Shown piece after piece: positions 23,118-28,251 of a stretch of 64,000 nucleotides of DNA (positions within the stretch are counted from its first letter, which is position 1; every line of letters starts with the position of its first letter). Origin of the DNA: Pirellulales bacterium (GTDB taxonomy: Bacteria; Planctomycetota; Planctomycetia; Pirellulales; Thermoguttaceae); assembly GCA_016931995.1 (NCBI GenBank), contig JAFGDS010000102.1, positions 1 through 64,000 of the forward strand, given 5' to 3'. The translations under genes were made by a program, and so were the position numbers. The notes beneath the pieces were generated by a model. The model had not been told where the DNA came from. It did not search any database and was given only the letters and a program-made list of their open reading frames with translations.

Positions 23118-24011
23118 TTAGGGGCGTCCGCTTTCCGCCTCGGCGTAGCCGGCGGGCAGGGCGGCGATGATGCGGATTTGGCTGGGCTTGGCGGGTGGAG
23201 GAAGGACGGTCACGCGCGAGCGACCGTCGACCAGCGCGAGGCTCGATGGAAGCCGGCTCGCGCCGGGCCGCTGCTCGTCGCGGGTGACGGGATCGGTTTC
23301 GGGCATGGGGGCCAGCGGCGCGGGAGTCGGGGCGGGCGTCGGCCCGCCTTCGGGGATGGTCTCGCCCTCGTCCGGCTCGCCCTGCCGCGGCGCCTCTCCA
23401 GCAGGCGGAAGCACGCGCCGGCACGCTGCCAGCGCGTTGGCGGCCGCCTGGCGCACCCGCGCCGATCGCTCCGTGTAGCACCCATTTTCGTCCTGCTCGT
23501 AGGCCACGGCGTGAAGCTTGGTCATTACCTTTGCGCTGCAGCAGCCCTTGCCGCCACAGTACTCGCAGGGATTGCCGGCGGCCTCGCAGAAGGCAATCGC
23601 GGCCTCGAAGCGGACCTCTTCGGAACAGTCGTCCAACTTGGCCAGCAGAGCCTCCGCGACGCCTTCGTAGCAGCCGCATCCAACCGTGGCCAAATACTTG
23701 ATCGCCTTGATTTTCTGGGGCGCCAGGTCTTCTTCGGTCTTGATCTTGGCGGCCAGCTTGACGGCGGCGCTGTCCGACTGGAGATTCTCCGGGTCGGCGA
23801 TTCGCCGGATGGGCGTCTCGCGTTCCAACCCCGGCCGGTTTCCGCGCCGATTCGTCGTGACGTCGCGGATCTTCTGGATCCCCCGCGGAATGCCGAGGAA
23901 GTGCCAGATCGTCTGCGACGCGGCGGCTTCCTCGACCGCGCGGCCCGTCGAGGCCGCGCCCAGAAGGCACGCCAACGCAAGACACGATCCCATGCAATGA
24001 CAACGACTCAT
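23118..24011 (-). CDS. Secreted Cys-rich HEAT-like repeat protein, stand-alone paralog of the N-terminal domain of the downstream TonB-dependent receptor
   Basis: Signal peptide MSRCHCMGSCLALACLLGAASTGRA. About 190 aa align at about 60% identity with residues 30-220 of ORF 25174-28251 (WxxLGIPxGIQKxRDVTTNRRGN .. QKIKAIKYL .. CYEGV .. CGGxGCC .. SARVR..A.NAL.AC). HEAT-like xEVRxEAAI repeats. Confidence 0.6.
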   Translation of the reverse strand: MSRCHCMGSCLALACLLGAASTGRAVEEAAASQTIWHFLGIPRGIQKIRDVTTNRRGNRPGLERETPIRRIADPENLQSDSAAVKLAAKIKTEEDLAPQKIKAIKYLATVGCGCYEGVAEALLAKLDDCSEEVRFEAAIAFCEAAGNPCEYCGGKGCCSAKVMTKLHAVAYEQDENGCYTERSARVRQAAANALAACRRVLPPAGEAPRQGEPDEGETIPEGGPTPAPTPAPLAPMPETDPVTRDEQRPGASRLPSSLALVDGRSRVTVLPPPAKPSQIRIIAALPAGYAEAESGRP

Positions 24012-24093
24012 GACGCTTCTCCCTTGGATGGACGCGCCGCGTCAACGCTTGGCCCCGCGGGCGGCCGCGAGACCTTTCGTTCCGAGGCGACGA

Positions 24094-24734
24094 TTACTGG
24101 CCACACGCTTCCTGTCGGCGGTTCTCGTTCCCGCCCACCCGCTTGCCGCGGCGGCAGTCGGGACAGCAGATGGTCGTCGGAACCTCGCGATAGACGACCC
24201 GCGGGACGCACACGGTCACCGTGTACGGTTCCTGCGTGACGACGCGCCGCGGGACCTCGACGACTTTTTGATAGGGCTCGGGCCGCAACACGGTGTAGGG
24301 CACCTTCTTGATGATGCAGGTCGGCGCCATCTTGACGCAGCTTCCAGACGTCCCACGGCCGCCGCGGTCGTTGCCCGACGCGCGACCTTCGCACGCCTCG
24401 GGCTGCCAGACCGTGCACGGACAACACCGATACCGCGTTTCCTCGACGTAGCGAACCGCGTCCACGGTTTTTTGTCGATCACGTCCTTGAACACGGACCG
24501 GTAGAAAGTCCGCTGCTCCTCGTCGTAAACGATCTCCTTGCACGTCTTCATGACCGTGCAAACCTGGCCGCAACGGCAGGTCTTCCCGCAACACGGTTGC
24601 ACGGCGACCGAATCCGACGCCGCCTGGACGCCGGAGCCGCCCATCGTTTCGTCCTGAGCTCTGGCTGCCGGCGCGGGCGCGCCAGCCAGACAAGCCACTA
24701 GTGCTCCCAGCGCGAGTTTTGTTGTGAGGTCCAT
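24094..24734 (-). pseudogene. Cys-rich secreted small protein split across two frames at an A_AAA_AAC heptamer (frameshifted gene, sequencing indel, or programmed -1 frameshift)
   Basis: Frame A (GAGGAG RBS; MDLTTKLALGALVACLAGAPAPAARA signal; ..QPCCGKTCRCGQVCTVMKTCKEIVYDEEQRTFYRSVFKDVIDKK) reads into R/S-rich junk after the A6 run. The -1 frame continues as TVDAVRYVEETRYRCCPCTVWQPEACEG..KKVPYTVLRPEPYQKVVEVPRRVVTQEPYTVTVCVPRVVYREVPTTICCPDC, a coherent Cys-rich sequence. Confidence 0.45.
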
Positions 24735-25173
24735 GCAGCAAGTCTCCTCTTCGGGGGGTCTTGCGCTCAAGCCGCCCGCGGATGCCGCGACCGGGTGGAC
24801 GTTGCGGGGCGCGTGTGTCCCATTGGCTGGTGTCCGCCGCTAACGGGTGTTTGCATTAGCCCGAGCTTTCGGATTGTATCAGTCTACCTGATCGTCACTG
24901 TTTGACAACTTGACGCGGTTGGGTAACCGCGGCCGGGCGGATGGTAGGTGTTGCTCGCCGACAGACCTTGTCGAGATGCCGCATTTTGCGCGCCCCGCCC
25001 ATCCGGAGGCGACGGTGTCGCTCTGACGGTGGCGAAATTCGCATCGGGTCGCGGACGCCCGTTCCAATGGTCAACTCCCGCTCAAGGCGGAGCCTTTCCC
25101 GTCGAACACATGATAAGGTGCCGGTTTTTCGGGCTGGGGCGGTTGTCATTGATTTCCGGACGGGGGGGATAAC

Positions 25174-28100
25174 ATGAGGTTTGCCCTTTGCTCCTGCCGA
25201 ATCGCTCTTGCGGTCTGCGTTCTGGTTGCGGGGATGCCGCTCGGGGCGGCGGAGACGCCGTCGGCGCCGACTCTTTGGAACTATCTTGGCATCCCCCAGG
25301 GCATCCAAAAGGTCCGCGACGTGACGACGAACCGTCGCGGCAATCATCCGAATATCGAACGGCCGGATGCCCTGCGGAGGATCTCCGATCCGGCCAACCT
25401 GGCAATGGACCCGGACAAATACCCCGAGATCGTGACTGCCGCGAAGATCAAGAAGCAGGAGGACGAGGCGGAGCAGAAGATCAAGGCGATCAAGTACCTG
25501 GGCACGATCGGCTGCGCGGGCTGCTACGAGGGAGTCGACCAAGCGCTGCTGGAAGCGCTGGGCGATTGCACGGAGGCGGTCCGCCACGAAGCGGCGATTG
25601 TGTTGTGCCAGTCGGCCGGTTGCGTGTGTGATCGTTGCGGCGGGCGCGGATGCTGCACCGCGGCGGTGATGAAGAAGCTGCACGAACTCGCTTACGAGAC
25701 GGACGAAAGCTGCTGCCATAAGGAGCCGTCGGCCCGAGTGCGGGCGGCCGCCCGAAACGCCTTGCAGGCGTGCATGAGGGTCACGCCCGCGTCGGGGCCT
25801 CCGGGGATGACGCCGATCGAGGAAGGCGGGGAGCGGATCCCCAGCGCCGCGCCGACCGTGGCGCCAGGGCAAGGGCAATCGACGTCGTGGTCGCCATACG
25901 AGCCTCTTTCGGACAGCGACGAGAGACCCGGCTTCATGTTGGCCTCGGCCTCCGTTCCCGCTGATGACGACGCGGCGGCGCAGTCGCTGTCGGAGGTTTC
26001 CCACGGGTCGGACGACGCTCCGTTCGCGCCGTCCGCGATGAATCCGCGCGCCGGCGGGAGTCTCTTTCAGACGACGGCGTATCAACAGGGGCTCGGCGCG
26101 CAGCCGATCCTGCCGGGCGAGTTCGGGACCGGTCCGATGGACAACCCGCTTGTGACTTCCTGGGGAACCGCGGGCACGCCGACGTCTGGCGCCGACGACC
26201 TGTTTCGCAGCGGCCAACTCGTGTCTCTTCCCGGCGCCGGCAGGGTGGCGGCGCCCGAGGCAACGGGCCTAGGCTCCCCCGACCTGGCGGACGTGCTCCG
26301 ATCCGCGTCCAACGTGCAGAGCGTCGAGGTGCAGCGACGTTCGCCAGTCTCCCTGGACCCGAACCTGCGCGGCTTCAAGGCCGGGCAGGTTTACACGGTG
26401 GCGGACGGCGCCTACTGGACGCCCGCCCGACGCGACTTGGACACCATGCTCAGCAAAATTGACCCAGGCATGATCCAGGACGTCATGGTTATTTCCGGGC
26501 CCTACGGGTTGCGATACGGGCCGGGATTCGGCTTCATCGACGTCGTGCGCGCTCCGACGCCGCGTTACAAGCACGGGCACGAATCCCACCTCTTGAGCAC
26601 CGGCTCCGTCCGGACCAACGGCGGCCAGCTCTATGGACGTGAAACGCTCTTCGGCGGCAGCCAGAACTGGGGATACCGGATCAGTTACGGCCACCGCCGC
26701 GGCAACGACTACGAGGCGGGCAGCGGCTTGCGGATCCCCAGTAGCTACGAAAACCGCGACGTCTGGGGAGAGCTGAGCTACGATCTGAACCCCTATCAGC
26801 GGCTCGATTTCGCCTACCAGCGGCTCGACCAGACCGACGCCGAGTACGCGTGCCAAATGTTCGACATCCGCAGTTTGGTGACCAACGGGTTCCAGTTGCG
26901 GCTGGTCGACGAGGATCCCGCGGCCCCCTGGACCCGCTGGGCGACCGAGGCCTGGTACAACCGCACGCGATTCGGGGGCGACACGTCGCACAAACACAAC
27001 GCCAGCTTTCCGACTATCGAGCGGATCGAGTACGCCCTGGACGCCGAGGTTCCCGGCCCGCCGCACACGCTCAGCGGCGTGACGGACGGGTCGGTGGGCT
27101 CCAGCGGATTGCGCACGGCGATGACCTTTGGCGACGTCGAGGACCGGCACGCGACCTTGGGGACGGACTACCGCTACCTGTCGCAACACATATCGGAAGT
27201 CCTCAAGGTGGAGCCGGCCATTGGCGGCCAGACCTACATCCCCACGAGCCAGCCGCACTCCTGGCTCAGCGACGCGGGCATGTTTGCCGAGTATTTCGTG
27301 CCCGCCACGCCCGACGGGGACGTTTCGCTCGGCGCACGCGTCGATTTCATCGGCTCGACGGCCAGGGCGAGCGACCTGCGACCCAATACACAGGTGACGG
27401 GAGGTCTCGATCAGAACGAGATCCTTCCGGCCTTCTACTGGATGAACCGTTTGGCCCTTGATTCTTGCTGGACGTTCAAGGCGGGATTTGGCCACGCCCA
27501 ACGCCCGCCCACGTTGACCGAGCGCTACGCCGACGGCGTCTTCCTCGGCATCGCGCAGACCGGCTACACCCGCGTCATCGGCGATCCCGACCTCCGCGAC
27601 GAGCGGGATTGGCAGATCGACCTCGGCCTGGAAGCCAAGCACGACCGCTGGCGAGGCAGGGCCGACGTCTTCCATTCCTGGGTCGACCAATACATCACCT
27701 GGCAGGACGACACCGTCGTCAGCTTCGCCGACGCGAGGCTGCTGAGATTCGTTAACACCGATCTGGCCACGCTGGCGGGTTTCGAGCTGTCGGGCGAGTA
27801 CGATTGGTCGGACTACACCACGCTGTTCGGAACGATGCGGTACGTCGAAGGACGCGACCAGACGATCGACGCCCCGCTGCCGGCCATCCCGCCGCTCGAT
27901 TCGCGCGTGGGCGTGCGCCTGCACGATCCGGAAGGCGGCCGGCGCTGGGGCCTGGAACTCGGTACCCGGATCGTCAACACCCAGAACCGGCTGGGCACCG
28001 TCCTCTTGCTCGGCTCACAGAAGACCACCATCGAAGAGCGGACCGGCGGCTTCGCCGTCTGGCACCTCCGCGGCTACTACAACCACACGAAGAACCTGAG

Positions 28101-28251
28101 GTTCGTGGCCGGCATCGACAACCTCTTCGACCGCGCGTACCAGGAGCACCTGGACCTGCGGCTCTTGGGACCAACGGGCTATCCTCACGACCCGACCCGC
28201 GTCCTCTCGCCCGGCTTCGCCCCGTACTTTGCCACCGAGTGGACGTTCTAG
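25174..28251 (+). CDS. TonB-dependent-receptor-like outer-membrane beta-barrel with a novel N-terminal Cys-rich HEAT-like extension
   Basis: Signal peptide MRFALCSCRIALAVCVLVAGMPLGAAE. N-terminal about 200-aa Cys-rich domain, then a low-complexity linker. Plug-like segment LRGFKAGQVYTVADGAYW..IQDVMVISGPYGLRYGPGFGFIDVV. C-terminal barrel ending GIDNLFDRAYQEH...YFATEWTF (terminal aromatic residue). Confidence 0.8.
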   Translation: MRFALCSCRIALAVCVLVAGMPLGAAETPSAPTLWNYLGIPQGIQKVRDVTTNRRGNHPNIERPDALRRISDPANLAMDPDKYPEIVTAAKIKKQEDEAEQKIKAIKYLGTIGCAGCYEGVDQALLEALGDCTEAVRHEAAIVLCQSAGCVCDRCGGRGCCTAAVMKKLHELAYETDESCCHKEPSARVRAAARNALQACMRVTPASGPPGMTPIEEGGERIPSAAPTVAPGQGQSTSWSPYEPLSDSDERPGFMLASASVPADDDAAAQSLSEVSHGSDDAPFAPSAMNPRAGGSLFQTTAYQQGLGAQPILPGEFGTGPMDNPLVTSWGTAGTPTSGADDLFRSGQLVSLPGAGRVAAPEATGLGSPDLADVLRSASNVQSVEVQRRSPVSLDPNLRGFKAGQVYTVADGAYWTPARRDLDTMLSKIDPGMIQDVMVISGPYGLRYGPGFGFIDVVRAPTPRYKHGHESHLLSTGSVRTNGGQLYGRETLFGGSQNWGYRISYGHRRGNDYEAGSGLRIPSSYENRDVWGELSYDLNPYQRLDFAYQRLDQTDAEYACQMFDIRSLVTNGFQLRLVDEDPAAPWTRWATEAWYNRTRFGGDTSHKHNASFPTIERIEYALDAEVPGPPHTLSGVTDGSVGSSGLRTAMTFGDVEDRHATLGTDYRYLSQHISEVLKVEPAIGGQTYIPTSQPHSWLSDAGMFAEYFVPATPDGDVSLGARVDFIGSTARASDLRPNTQVTGGLDQNEILPAFYWMNRLALDSCWTFKAGFGHAQRPPTLTERYADGVFLGIAQTGYTRVIGDPDLRDERDWQIDLGLEAKHDRWRGRADVFHSWVDQYITWQDDTVVSFADARLLRFVNTDLATLAGFELSGEYDWSDYTTLFGTMRYVEGRDQTIDAPLPAIPPLDSRVGVRLHDPEGGRRWGLELGTRIVNTQNRLGTVLLLGSQKTTIEERTGGFAVWHLRGYYNHTKNLRFVAGIDNLFDRAYQEHLDLRLLGPTGYPHDPTRVLSPGFAPYFATEWTF

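What the first reader, a model, noticed from the sequence alone, without database searches (positions are those of the whole stretch)
24467..24473. Textbook -1 slippery heptamer A_AAA_AAC joins two reading frames of a Cys-rich secreted protein
On the minus strand, frame A (good GAGGAG RBS, signal peptide, CCGKTCRCGQVC...) runs into the heptamer A AAA AAC (plus-strand GTTTTTT at 24467-24473) and then decays into R/S-rich junk. Slipping back one base continues as TVDAVRYVEETRYRCCPCTVWQPEACEG...KKVPYTVLRPEPYQKVVEVPRRVVTQEPYTVTVCVPRVVYREVPTTICCPDC, a coherent Cys-rich sequence with repeated VPYTV/PYxxV motifs. X_XXY_YYZ = A_AAA_AAC is the same class of site as dnaX's A_AAA_AAG. Three explanations are possible: a programmed -1 frameshift producing two isoforms; a genuine inactivating 1-nt deletion (pseudogene); or a homopolymer sequencing error.
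Basis: seen in the sequence. Interest (0 to 1): 0.55.

Follow-up and report, generated by a model that had tools for sequence, protein, structure and literature searches.

The report
One-base frameshift in planctomycete envelope gene
A secreted cysteine-rich protein gene of an uncultured Pirellulales bacterium is broken by one missing A in a run of A's; relatives carry the gene as one unbroken frame with no slippery site, so this is most likely an ordinary mutation (or a sequence error), not programmed frameshifting.

Summary
The frame break is real. On the minus strand, frame A (ATG 24734) and frame B (stop 24094-24096) are the two halves of one conserved ~213-aa protein. They meet at the A6 run 24473-24468.

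The "textbook heptamer" is out of register. Frame A reads GAC|AAA|AAA|CCG, so the in-register motif is C_AAA_AAA. That amounts to an A_AA.A tetramer, which is barely slippery on its own in E. coli.

Evidence against a programmed shift:
- All homologues found (43-56% identity, syntenic) are single continuous ORFs.
- They align without gaps across the junction and have no A-run there.
- The downstream RNA folds no better than shuffled sequence, and there is no Rfam match.
- The zero frame runs on for 83 codons of Arg-rich sequence with no homologues.

A separate Logan assembly of run SRR13394437 also shows A6, and no other frame break appears in the 64 kb.

Best reading: a recent one-base deletion from an ancestral A7 (GAC AAA AAA ACC), giving a young pseudogene or variant allele. 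An assembly error is the main rival. Programmed recoding or phase variation cannot be excluded without reads or closer relatives, but nothing supports them. Low interest.

The parts
24881..24908 (-). Promoter-like site TTGTCA-16 nt-TAGACT upstream of the gene
   Evidence: Consensus scan: 1 found against 0.1 expected in shuffles. Function is inferred only.
24744..24749 (-). Shine-Dalgarno-like GAGGAG, 9 nt before the ATG
   Evidence: Read directly from the sequence.
24468..24734 (-). Frame A: codons 1-89 (MDLTTK...FKDVIDKK). Signal-peptide-like N-terminus plus the first conserved Cys-rich part.
   Evidence: Homologous to the N-terminal half of continuous homologues.
24468..24473 (-). A6 run (T6 on the plus strand) where the frames meet. 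Zero-frame codons are AAA AAA, preceded by GAC and followed by CCG.
   Evidence: The junction is bracketed by homology between 24474 and 24465.
24094..24468 (-). Frame B: ACC GTG GAC... encoding TVDAVRYVEETRYRC...EACGQ plus the stop. This is the conserved C-terminal 124 residues.
   Evidence: GenBank calls it from GTG 24465 as MBN2023832.1.
24216..24467 (-). Frame-A read-on: 83 codons of Arg/Ser-rich sequence with no homologues and poor coding potential.
23118..24011 (-). Downstream neighbour: 297-aa protein with a HEAT-like Cys-containing domain. The gene pair is conserved in syntenic orthologous loci.
25174..28251 (+). Divergent upstream neighbour: the same HEAT-like domain fused to a TonB-dependent-receptor plug and barrel (1025 aa).

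Best explanation
The locus is one gene for a ~213-aa secreted, cysteine-rich protein. It belongs to a small family seen almost only in Planctomycetota records here, with PYTV-type motifs that recall the YTV cell-wall proteins.

In this metagenome-assembled Pirellulales genome the gene carries a one-base deletion in what was most likely an A7 run (GAC AAA AAA ACC, D-K-K-T), leaving A6. Ribosomes in the incoming frame run into 83 codons of meaningless Arg-rich sequence. The conserved C-terminal 124 residues are then reached only by rare spontaneous slippage.

Mononucleotide runs are where replication slippage makes such deletions, which explains why the break sits on the run. The lesion is young: frame B is still open, still codon-biased, and keeps every invariant family residue. 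It is therefore a recent pseudogene or a variant allele in the sampled population, not a programmed recoding site.

Shown: one gene in two frames; junction at the A run; relatives continuous with no slippery site; no stimulatory elements detected. Inferred: that the lesion is in the DNA rather than in the assembly, and that the ancestor was A7.
For: 1. Ten database homologues (168-214 aa, 43-56% identity) are single ORFs. They align without gaps across DKK|TVDAV, with invariant residues on both sides: Y78 and V81 before the junction, and Y96 V97 E98 E99 after it.
2. A profile search of 1.84 billion representatives found 143 relatives at E<=0.001. The full-length ones (190-225 aa) match in one stretch over profile positions 1-194. 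The junction is at about position 75/76, and no match ends there.
3. Nine loci hold close relatives that are read in a single frame across the junction (L001, L002, L010, L057-L062); seven of these (all but L061 and L062) also carry the same neighbouring HEAT-like gene. Their codons at the site include GAC GAG CGG ATC, GAC AAG GTG CCG and GAA GAA AAG ACC. None has an A-run longer than 4.
4. One added A restores a gapless alignment. AlphaFold2 on the joined sequence gives pLDDT around 97 straight through residues 60-110, which include the junction.
5. The Logan assembly of SRR13394437 is 100% identical over 5247 nt, including A6.
6. A codon-bias scan finds no other same-strand frame switch far from a stop in the 64 kb, so the assembly is not indel-prone.
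7. AAA is the minor Lys codon (77 against 282 AAG). None of 13 KK pairs in 25 confident genes is AAA-AAA, so such a run is a rare mutational hotspot here.
Against: - No reads were available, so DNA lesion and consensus error cannot be separated directly.
- The Logan contig probably comes from the same reads as the MAG, so it is only partly independent.
- No relative closer than 56% identity exists in any collection searched. The ancestral A7 state is therefore inferred, and a lineage-specific use of the shift cannot be excluded.
- Frame B shows no second disabling lesion. This fits a very young pseudogene, but it also fits a gene that is still expressed.
Confidence: 0.6

Rival explanations
1. 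Sequencing or assembly error. The organism really has A7 and an intact gene, and the consensus dropped one A in the homopolymer.
For: - The break lies exactly in a homopolymer, and adding one base restores a perfect, gapless, fully conserved protein.
- Frame B has no other defect.
- The source is a MAG known from a single run.
- Another MAG orthologue (L010, whose MFD isolate name suggests a long-read assembly; platform not verified) has a frame break in a stretch with short C-runs that looks like such an error.
Against: - A k-mer-based Logan assembly of SRR13394437 gives the same A6 and is 100% identical over 5.2 kb. That argues for accurate reads, in which 6-7-nt runs are rarely miscalled.
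- No other frame break was detected in about 50 genes of the window.
Confidence: 0.22
2. Utilised recoding specific to this lineage. A fraction of ribosomes slip -1 on AAA AAA (or RNA polymerase adds an A on the run), so both a truncated product and the full-length protein are made, or expression is kept deliberately low.
For: - The A run lets the A-site or P-site tRNA-Lys re-pair perfectly in the -1 frame (A_AA.A tetramer in register).
- AAGGA lies 10 nt upstream, which is a dnaX-like spacing.
- Frame B is intact and strongly codon-biased.
- AAA-AAA is otherwise avoided in this genome.
- Compensatory low-level frameshifting at indels is documented elsewhere (PMC5009743).
Against: - There is no X_XXY_YYZ heptamer in register: the motif is C_AAA_AAA.
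- In E. coli, tetramers without a stimulator are at background (about 0.15% against 0.11%). A_AA.A is the weakest of the six tetramers that respond to a pseudoknot (PMC4066793).
- The downstream 48 nt and 88 nt fold no better than shuffles (z = +0.7 and +1.8). There is no Rfam match.
- The AAGGA is simply the conserved K-[DE] codons, and it is present in orthologues that have no shift site.
- No orthologue has the site or the split.
- The zero frame does not stop for 83 codons.
- Six A's is short for transcriptional slippage; the bacterial example cited in the review is a run of 9 (PMC5009743).
Confidence: 0.08
3. Phase variation. The A6/A7 tract is a reversible on/off switch for a surface protein through slipped-strand mispairing, and the sampled population is mostly in the OFF state.
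For: - The product is a secreted, probably envelope-associated protein, which is the usual kind of target.
- The tract is unusual for a 66% G+C genome that prefers AAG.
- Frame B is undamaged.
Against: - The tract is short; by general knowledge, contingency loci usually have runs of 8 or more.
- No tract at this position in any orthologue.
- Phase variation is not described for Planctomycetota, to my knowledge.
- The exact full-length product is absent from a 15-billion-protein collection.
Confidence: 0.08

Closest known systems
Frameshifted (pseudo)genes with an indel in a mononucleotide run
   Same: Two halves of one conserved protein lie in adjacent frames. The break is exactly at a homopolymer. 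One base restores a gapless match to intact orthologues. There are no recoding signals.
   Different: There is no second lesion and no close relative to date the event, and it is not confirmed at read level.
dnaX-type and IS-type programmed -1 frameshift sites (A_AAA_AAG in dnaX; A_AAA_AAC in IS1)
   Same: A run of A's decoded by tRNA-Lys, a shift to the -1 frame, and an SD-like AAGGA 10 nt upstream.
   Different: - The heptamer is out of register (C_AAA_AAA).
- There is no downstream stem-loop beyond chance.
- The site is not conserved in orthologues.
- The zero frame continues for 83 codons instead of ending in a defined shorter product.
- The gene is not a mobile element or a replication gene.
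YTV-domain cysteine-rich cell-wall proteins of Planctomycetes (Pfam PF07639; PMC8567305)
   Same: Secreted and Cys-rich, with repeated (V)PYTV / EPYTVT motifs. Nearly all relatives found are in Planctomycetota records. More distant tblastn hits fall in multi-repeat Cys-rich proteins of Roseimaritima, Mariniblastus and others.
   Different: None of the 11 aligned family members matches any Pfam model (YTV included) beyond one chance-level hit at E=1.2, even at E<=10. The proteins are short (~200 aa), and two long beta segments are predicted.

Membership tests
Programmed -1 ribosomal frameshift site | Slippery heptamer X_XXY_YYZ in register with the incoming frame | tested here: not met
Frame A codons are GAC|AAA|AAA|CCG, giving C_AAA_AAA. 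Only the tetramer A_AA.A is in register.
Programmed -1 ribosomal frameshift site | Downstream stimulatory stem-loop or pseudoknot a few nt after the site | tested here: not met
   The 48-nt and 88-nt downstream segments fold no better than dinucleotide shuffles (z = +0.69 and +1.81). No Rfam family matches. Pseudoknots were not modelled explicitly.
Programmed -1 ribosomal frameshift site | Upstream SD-like stimulator at about 10 nt (dnaX type) | tested here: inconclusive
   AAGGA (24488-24484) lies 10 nt before the run. It is the conserved K-[DE] codon pair and also occurs in orthologues without any shift site.
Programmed -1 ribosomal frameshift site | Shift site and two-frame layout conserved among orthologues | tested here: not met
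   All 10 homologues and the 9 closest related loci (7 with the conserved neighbour gene) are read in a single frame across this site with no A-run there. Full-length profile hits span the junction in one stretch.
Programmed -1 ribosomal frameshift site | Trans-frame protein product demonstrated | not testable with these tools
   Needs proteomics or reporter assays.
Transcriptional slippage site | Long A/T run (the bacterial example cited in the review is 9; PMC5009743) | tested here: not met
   The run is 6 nt.
Frameshifted gene (indel at a homopolymer) | Both frames homologous to consecutive parts of one continuous protein, restored without gaps by 1 nt | tested here: met
   The AF2 model is confident across the junction.
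Frameshifted gene (indel at a homopolymer) | Lesion present in the DNA (reads), not only in the consensus | tested here: inconclusive
   A second assembly (Logan, SRR13394437) also has A6, but it is probably built from the same reads. No pile-up is available.
YTV-domain proteins (Pfam PF07639) | Match to the Pfam YTV model | tested here: not met
   No hit to the YTV model (or any meaningful Pfam hit) for the joined protein or any of its 10 homologues, even at E<=10.
YTV-domain proteins (Pfam PF07639) | Cys-rich, YTV motifs, restricted to Planctomycetes | tested here: met
   The sequence has 18 Cys, plus VPYTV and EPYTVTV. 55 of the 56 genome loci are titled Planctomycetota lineages. The exception, L002, is titled Nealsonbacteria and is likely mis-binned.
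Phase-variable contingency locus | Tract-length polymorphism between cells or strains | not testable with these tools
   Only one sample carries this genome. The intact product is absent from the protein collection.

The most novel reading that the evidence does not exclude
In this Pirellulales lineage the envelope-protein gene is kept in two frames, and the full-length protein is made only by low-level -1 slippage on AAA AAA (ribosomal or transcriptional). This would be a chromosomal, non-mobile 'pseudo-pseudogene' whose output is throttled or diversified by recoding, without the canonical heptamer or a downstream structure.
Probability: 0.07. Interest if true: 0.5.

Novelty: already known. 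Interest (0 to 1): 0.12.

Why it matters
For recoding it matters little. It is a worked example of why a slippery-looking run next to a frame break is not evidence of programmed frameshifting. Register, stimulators and conservation all have to hold, and here none does.

There are two practical consequences:
- The GenBank MAG annotation (MBN2023832.1, 123 aa from an internal GTG) describes a fragment. The gene should be annotated as one frameshifted 213-aa gene.
- The protein family itself is unannotated and may deserve study in its own right. It has about 143 cluster representatives, a conserved pairing with a HEAT-like domain that here is also fused to a TonB-dependent receptor, and confidently predicted 54-residue beta segments.

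Tried and rejected
- Closer relatives. I scanned genome contigs and metagenome contigs with the family alignment. The best match was 55-56% identity, so site conservation within the genus cannot be tested.
- An intact allele. I looked up the joined product exactly, with two possible starts, in the 15-billion-protein collection. It is absent.
- Other samples. The neighbouring proteins occur in only one sample, SRR13394437.
- A paper naming that run. None was found.
- Family models. Pfam, NCBIfam and Rfam gave nothing for the Cys-rich protein or the site.
- Fold comparison. Foldseek against the PDB found only long-hairpin pore or ring proteins at TM<0.2, so there is no usable fold assignment. 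The afdb50 library was unavailable.
- A plus-strand terminator-like hairpin plus T6 at 24445-24473. It is at chance level (4 found against 2.6 expected) and no plus-strand gene ends there.
- Two independent functional genes. Rejected because frame B lacks a signal peptide and the predicted beta segment 59-112 spans the break.
- Restoration by deleting 2 nt (A4). This is less parsimonious than A7 and would shorten an otherwise gapless alignment by one residue.

Full report
**1. What is in the sequence**

The window is 65.7% G+C. The plus strand reads GTTTTTT at 24467-24473.

On the minus strand, GAGGAG (24749-24744) lies 9 nt before an ATG at 24734. A promoter-like TTGTCA-16-TAGACT sits at 24908-24881.

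From that ATG, frame A encodes 89 residues. It has a signal-peptide-like start (MDLTTKLALGALVACLAGAPAPAARA) followed by CCGKTCRCGQVCTVMKTCKEIVYDEEQRTFYRSVFKDVIDKK. The last codons are GAC AAA AAA (24476-24468), followed by CCG.

Staying in frame A gives 83 more codons that are 25% Arg and 70% R/S/A/G/P, ending at the stop at 24216-24218.

Frame B from ACC (24468-24466) gives TVDAVRYVEETRYRCCPCTVWQPE...EPYTVTVCVPRVVYREVPTTICCPDC..., ending at the stop at 24094-24096. GC3 and codon-bias scans switch frame at the same place.

**2. The register is wrong**

X_XXY_YYZ is defined relative to the incoming frame. Frame A is GAC|AAA|AAA|CCG, so the in-register heptamer is C_AAA_AAA (24474-24468).

Those belong to the third frame, which carries a TGA at 24481-24479.

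What is in register is only the tetramer A_AA.A. After a -1 slip, the tRNA-Lys on the second AAA can re-pair perfectly. The tRNA on the first AAA would face CAA.

[quoted passage not shown] A_AA.A was the weakest of the six that responded to a strong pseudoknot (PMC4066793).

The string AAAAAAC occurs 3 times in the window against 3.35 expected, so the motif alone means nothing.

**3. It is one gene**

The joined 213-aa sequence found ten homologues of 168-214 aa at 43-56% identity (E from 1e-37 to 3e-26).

- All are single ORFs, and the alignment crosses DKK|TVDAV without a gap.
- Invariant residues lie on both sides: C49, K63, C65, Y78 and V81 before the junction; Y96, V97, E98, E99, Y102, R103 and C104 after it.
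- P0005, for example, reads DVVDKVPVDAVRYVEE against DVIDKKTVDAVRYVEE here.
- That confines the shift to the bases between GAC (24474) and GTG (24465), which means the A run.

A profile search of 1.84 billion representatives found 143 relatives at E<=0.001. The full-length ones (190-225 aa) match in one stretch over profile positions 1-194. No match ends at the junction, which is at about position 75/76.

AlphaFold2 on the joined sequence with these 11 sequences gave pLDDT 91-97 for residues 60-110 and 140-185. DSSP reported uninterrupted beta segments at 59-112 and 136-189, so the junction at 89/90 lies inside a confidently predicted element. A frame-A-only product would lack part of that element.

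**4. Orthologues at DNA level**

Scans of one genome per species and of JGI metagenomes returned 82 loci. Nine hold close relatives (L001, L002, L010, L057-L062), and seven of these (all but L061 and L062) also have the same neighbouring gene. That neighbour is a ~230-aa HEAT-like, Cys-containing domain. In the window it occurs alone (23118-24011, minus strand) and fused to a TonB-dependent-receptor plug and barrel (25174-28251, plus strand).

At the position of GAC AAA AAA (A)CC these loci read:

| Locus | Codons at the site |
|---|---|
| L059, L060 | GAC GAG CGG ATC |
| L061 | GAA GAA AAG ACC |
| L058 | GAC GAG AAA ATC |
| L057 | GAC AAG GTG CCG |
| L001 | GAC AAG CAC GTG |
| L002 | GTC GAG AAG GTC |
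| L010 | GAA AAG GTG CAG |
| L062 | GAG AAC AAG ACG |

All are in one frame, and none has more than four A's in a row.

**5. Stimulatory signals**

- The 48 nt and 88 nt after the run fold no better than dinucleotide shuffles (z = +0.69 and +1.81).
- No Rfam family matches 23800-25200.
- AAGGA lies 10 nt upstream, which is dnaX-like spacing. However, it is simply the codons of the conserved K-[DE], and it is present in orthologues that have no shift site.
- The zero frame does not terminate for 83 codons, so there is no defined short isoform.

**6. Real lesion or error?**

The source is a GenBank MAG titled Pirellulales bacterium, contig length 120,260 bp. Its annotation calls only frame B from GTG 24465 (MBN2023832.1, JW809_13685, 123 aa).

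A Logan assembly of run SRR13394437 contains a 5.6-kb contig that is 100% identical to the window over 5247 nt, including A6. No other sample carries these proteins, and the intact 213- or 225-aa product is absent from the 15-billion-protein collection.

A codon-bias scan of the whole window found no other same-strand frame switch lying far from a stop. The remaining flags are ordinary gene boundaries or antisense shadows. The assembly is therefore not indel-prone.

AAA is the minor Lys codon (77 against 282 AAG), and none of 13 KK pairs in 25 confident genes is AAA-AAA. An ancestral AAA AAA A run would have been a rare local hotspot for replication slippage. That is enough to explain why the break is on the run.

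I rate the four readings as follows:

| Reading | Probability |
|---|---|
| Real one-base deletion (young pseudogene or variant allele) | about 0.6 |
| Consensus error | about 0.2 |
| Utilised recoding | below 0.1 |
| Phase variation | below 0.1 |

Only read pile-ups or close relatives can separate them.

**7. Comparison with known systems**

The locus behaves like an ordinary frameshifted gene. It fails three defining features of programmed -1 sites: register, downstream structure and conservation. At 6 nt, the run is well short of the 9-nt run cited as the bacterial example of transcriptional slippage (PMC5009743). The same review notes that low-level "compensatory" frameshifting at indels exists. 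That is the only novel reading left open.

The protein resembles the Cys-rich YTV cell-wall proteins of Planctomycetes (PMC8567305) in composition, motifs and taxonomic range. It does not match the Pfam YTV model or any NCBIfam model, and the PDB fold search gave no meaningful match (TM<0.2).

**8. Verdict**

This is an ordinary frameshifted gene (or a consensus error) in a poorly sampled lineage, and it is of low interest as a recoding candidate. The unannotated protein family and its conserved neighbourhood are the more interesting by-products.

Noticed in passing
window 23118-24011 (-) and 25174-28251 (+); L001, L002, L010, L057-L060: A ~230-aa Cys-containing HEAT-like domain (LGIPxGIQKxRDVTTNRRGN...KIKAIKYLxTxGCGCYEGV) is always encoded next to the Cys-rich gene. 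In the window it occurs twice: alone (297 aa), and fused to the N-terminus of a TonB-dependent-receptor plug and barrel (1025 aa). That is an unusual N-terminal extension for such a receptor.
   Followed up: partly
window 24094-24734 (-), joined protein: AlphaFold2 with only 11 sequences predicts two uninterrupted 54-residue beta segments (59-112 and 136-189) at pLDDT 91-97. The PDB fold search returns only long-hairpin pore or ring proteins (phi29 tail, lysenin, anthrax PA, aerolysin) at TM<0.2. The family has about 143 cluster representatives and no Pfam or NCBIfam model.
   Followed up: partly
L010 5196-5261 (CAVWXT010000002.1): The orthologue in this MAG (MFD isolate name suggests a long-read assembly; platform not verified) is also split into two frames. 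The break is in a stretch with short C-runs (C5, C3, C4) after ...VTVMQPP, not at the window's site, so it looks like a homopolymer assembly error.
   Followed up: partly
window 24094-24465 (-): The GenBank record of the source MAG annotates only a 123-aa 'hypothetical protein' from an internal GTG (MBN2023832.1, JW809_13685). Logan calls a 78-aa ORF from ATG 24330. Neither recognises the frameshifted 213-aa gene.
   Followed up: yes
L002 (JABMRB010000793.1): This contig is titled 'Candidatus Nealsonbacteria bacterium' but carries the planctomycete Cys-rich gene together with its HEAT-like neighbour. It is probably mis-binned.
   Followed up: no
window 24445-24473 (+): On the antisense strand a weak 5-bp hairpin followed by the T6 run scores as terminator-like. 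This is at chance level (4 found against 2.6 expected) and no plus-strand gene ends there.
   Followed up: yes
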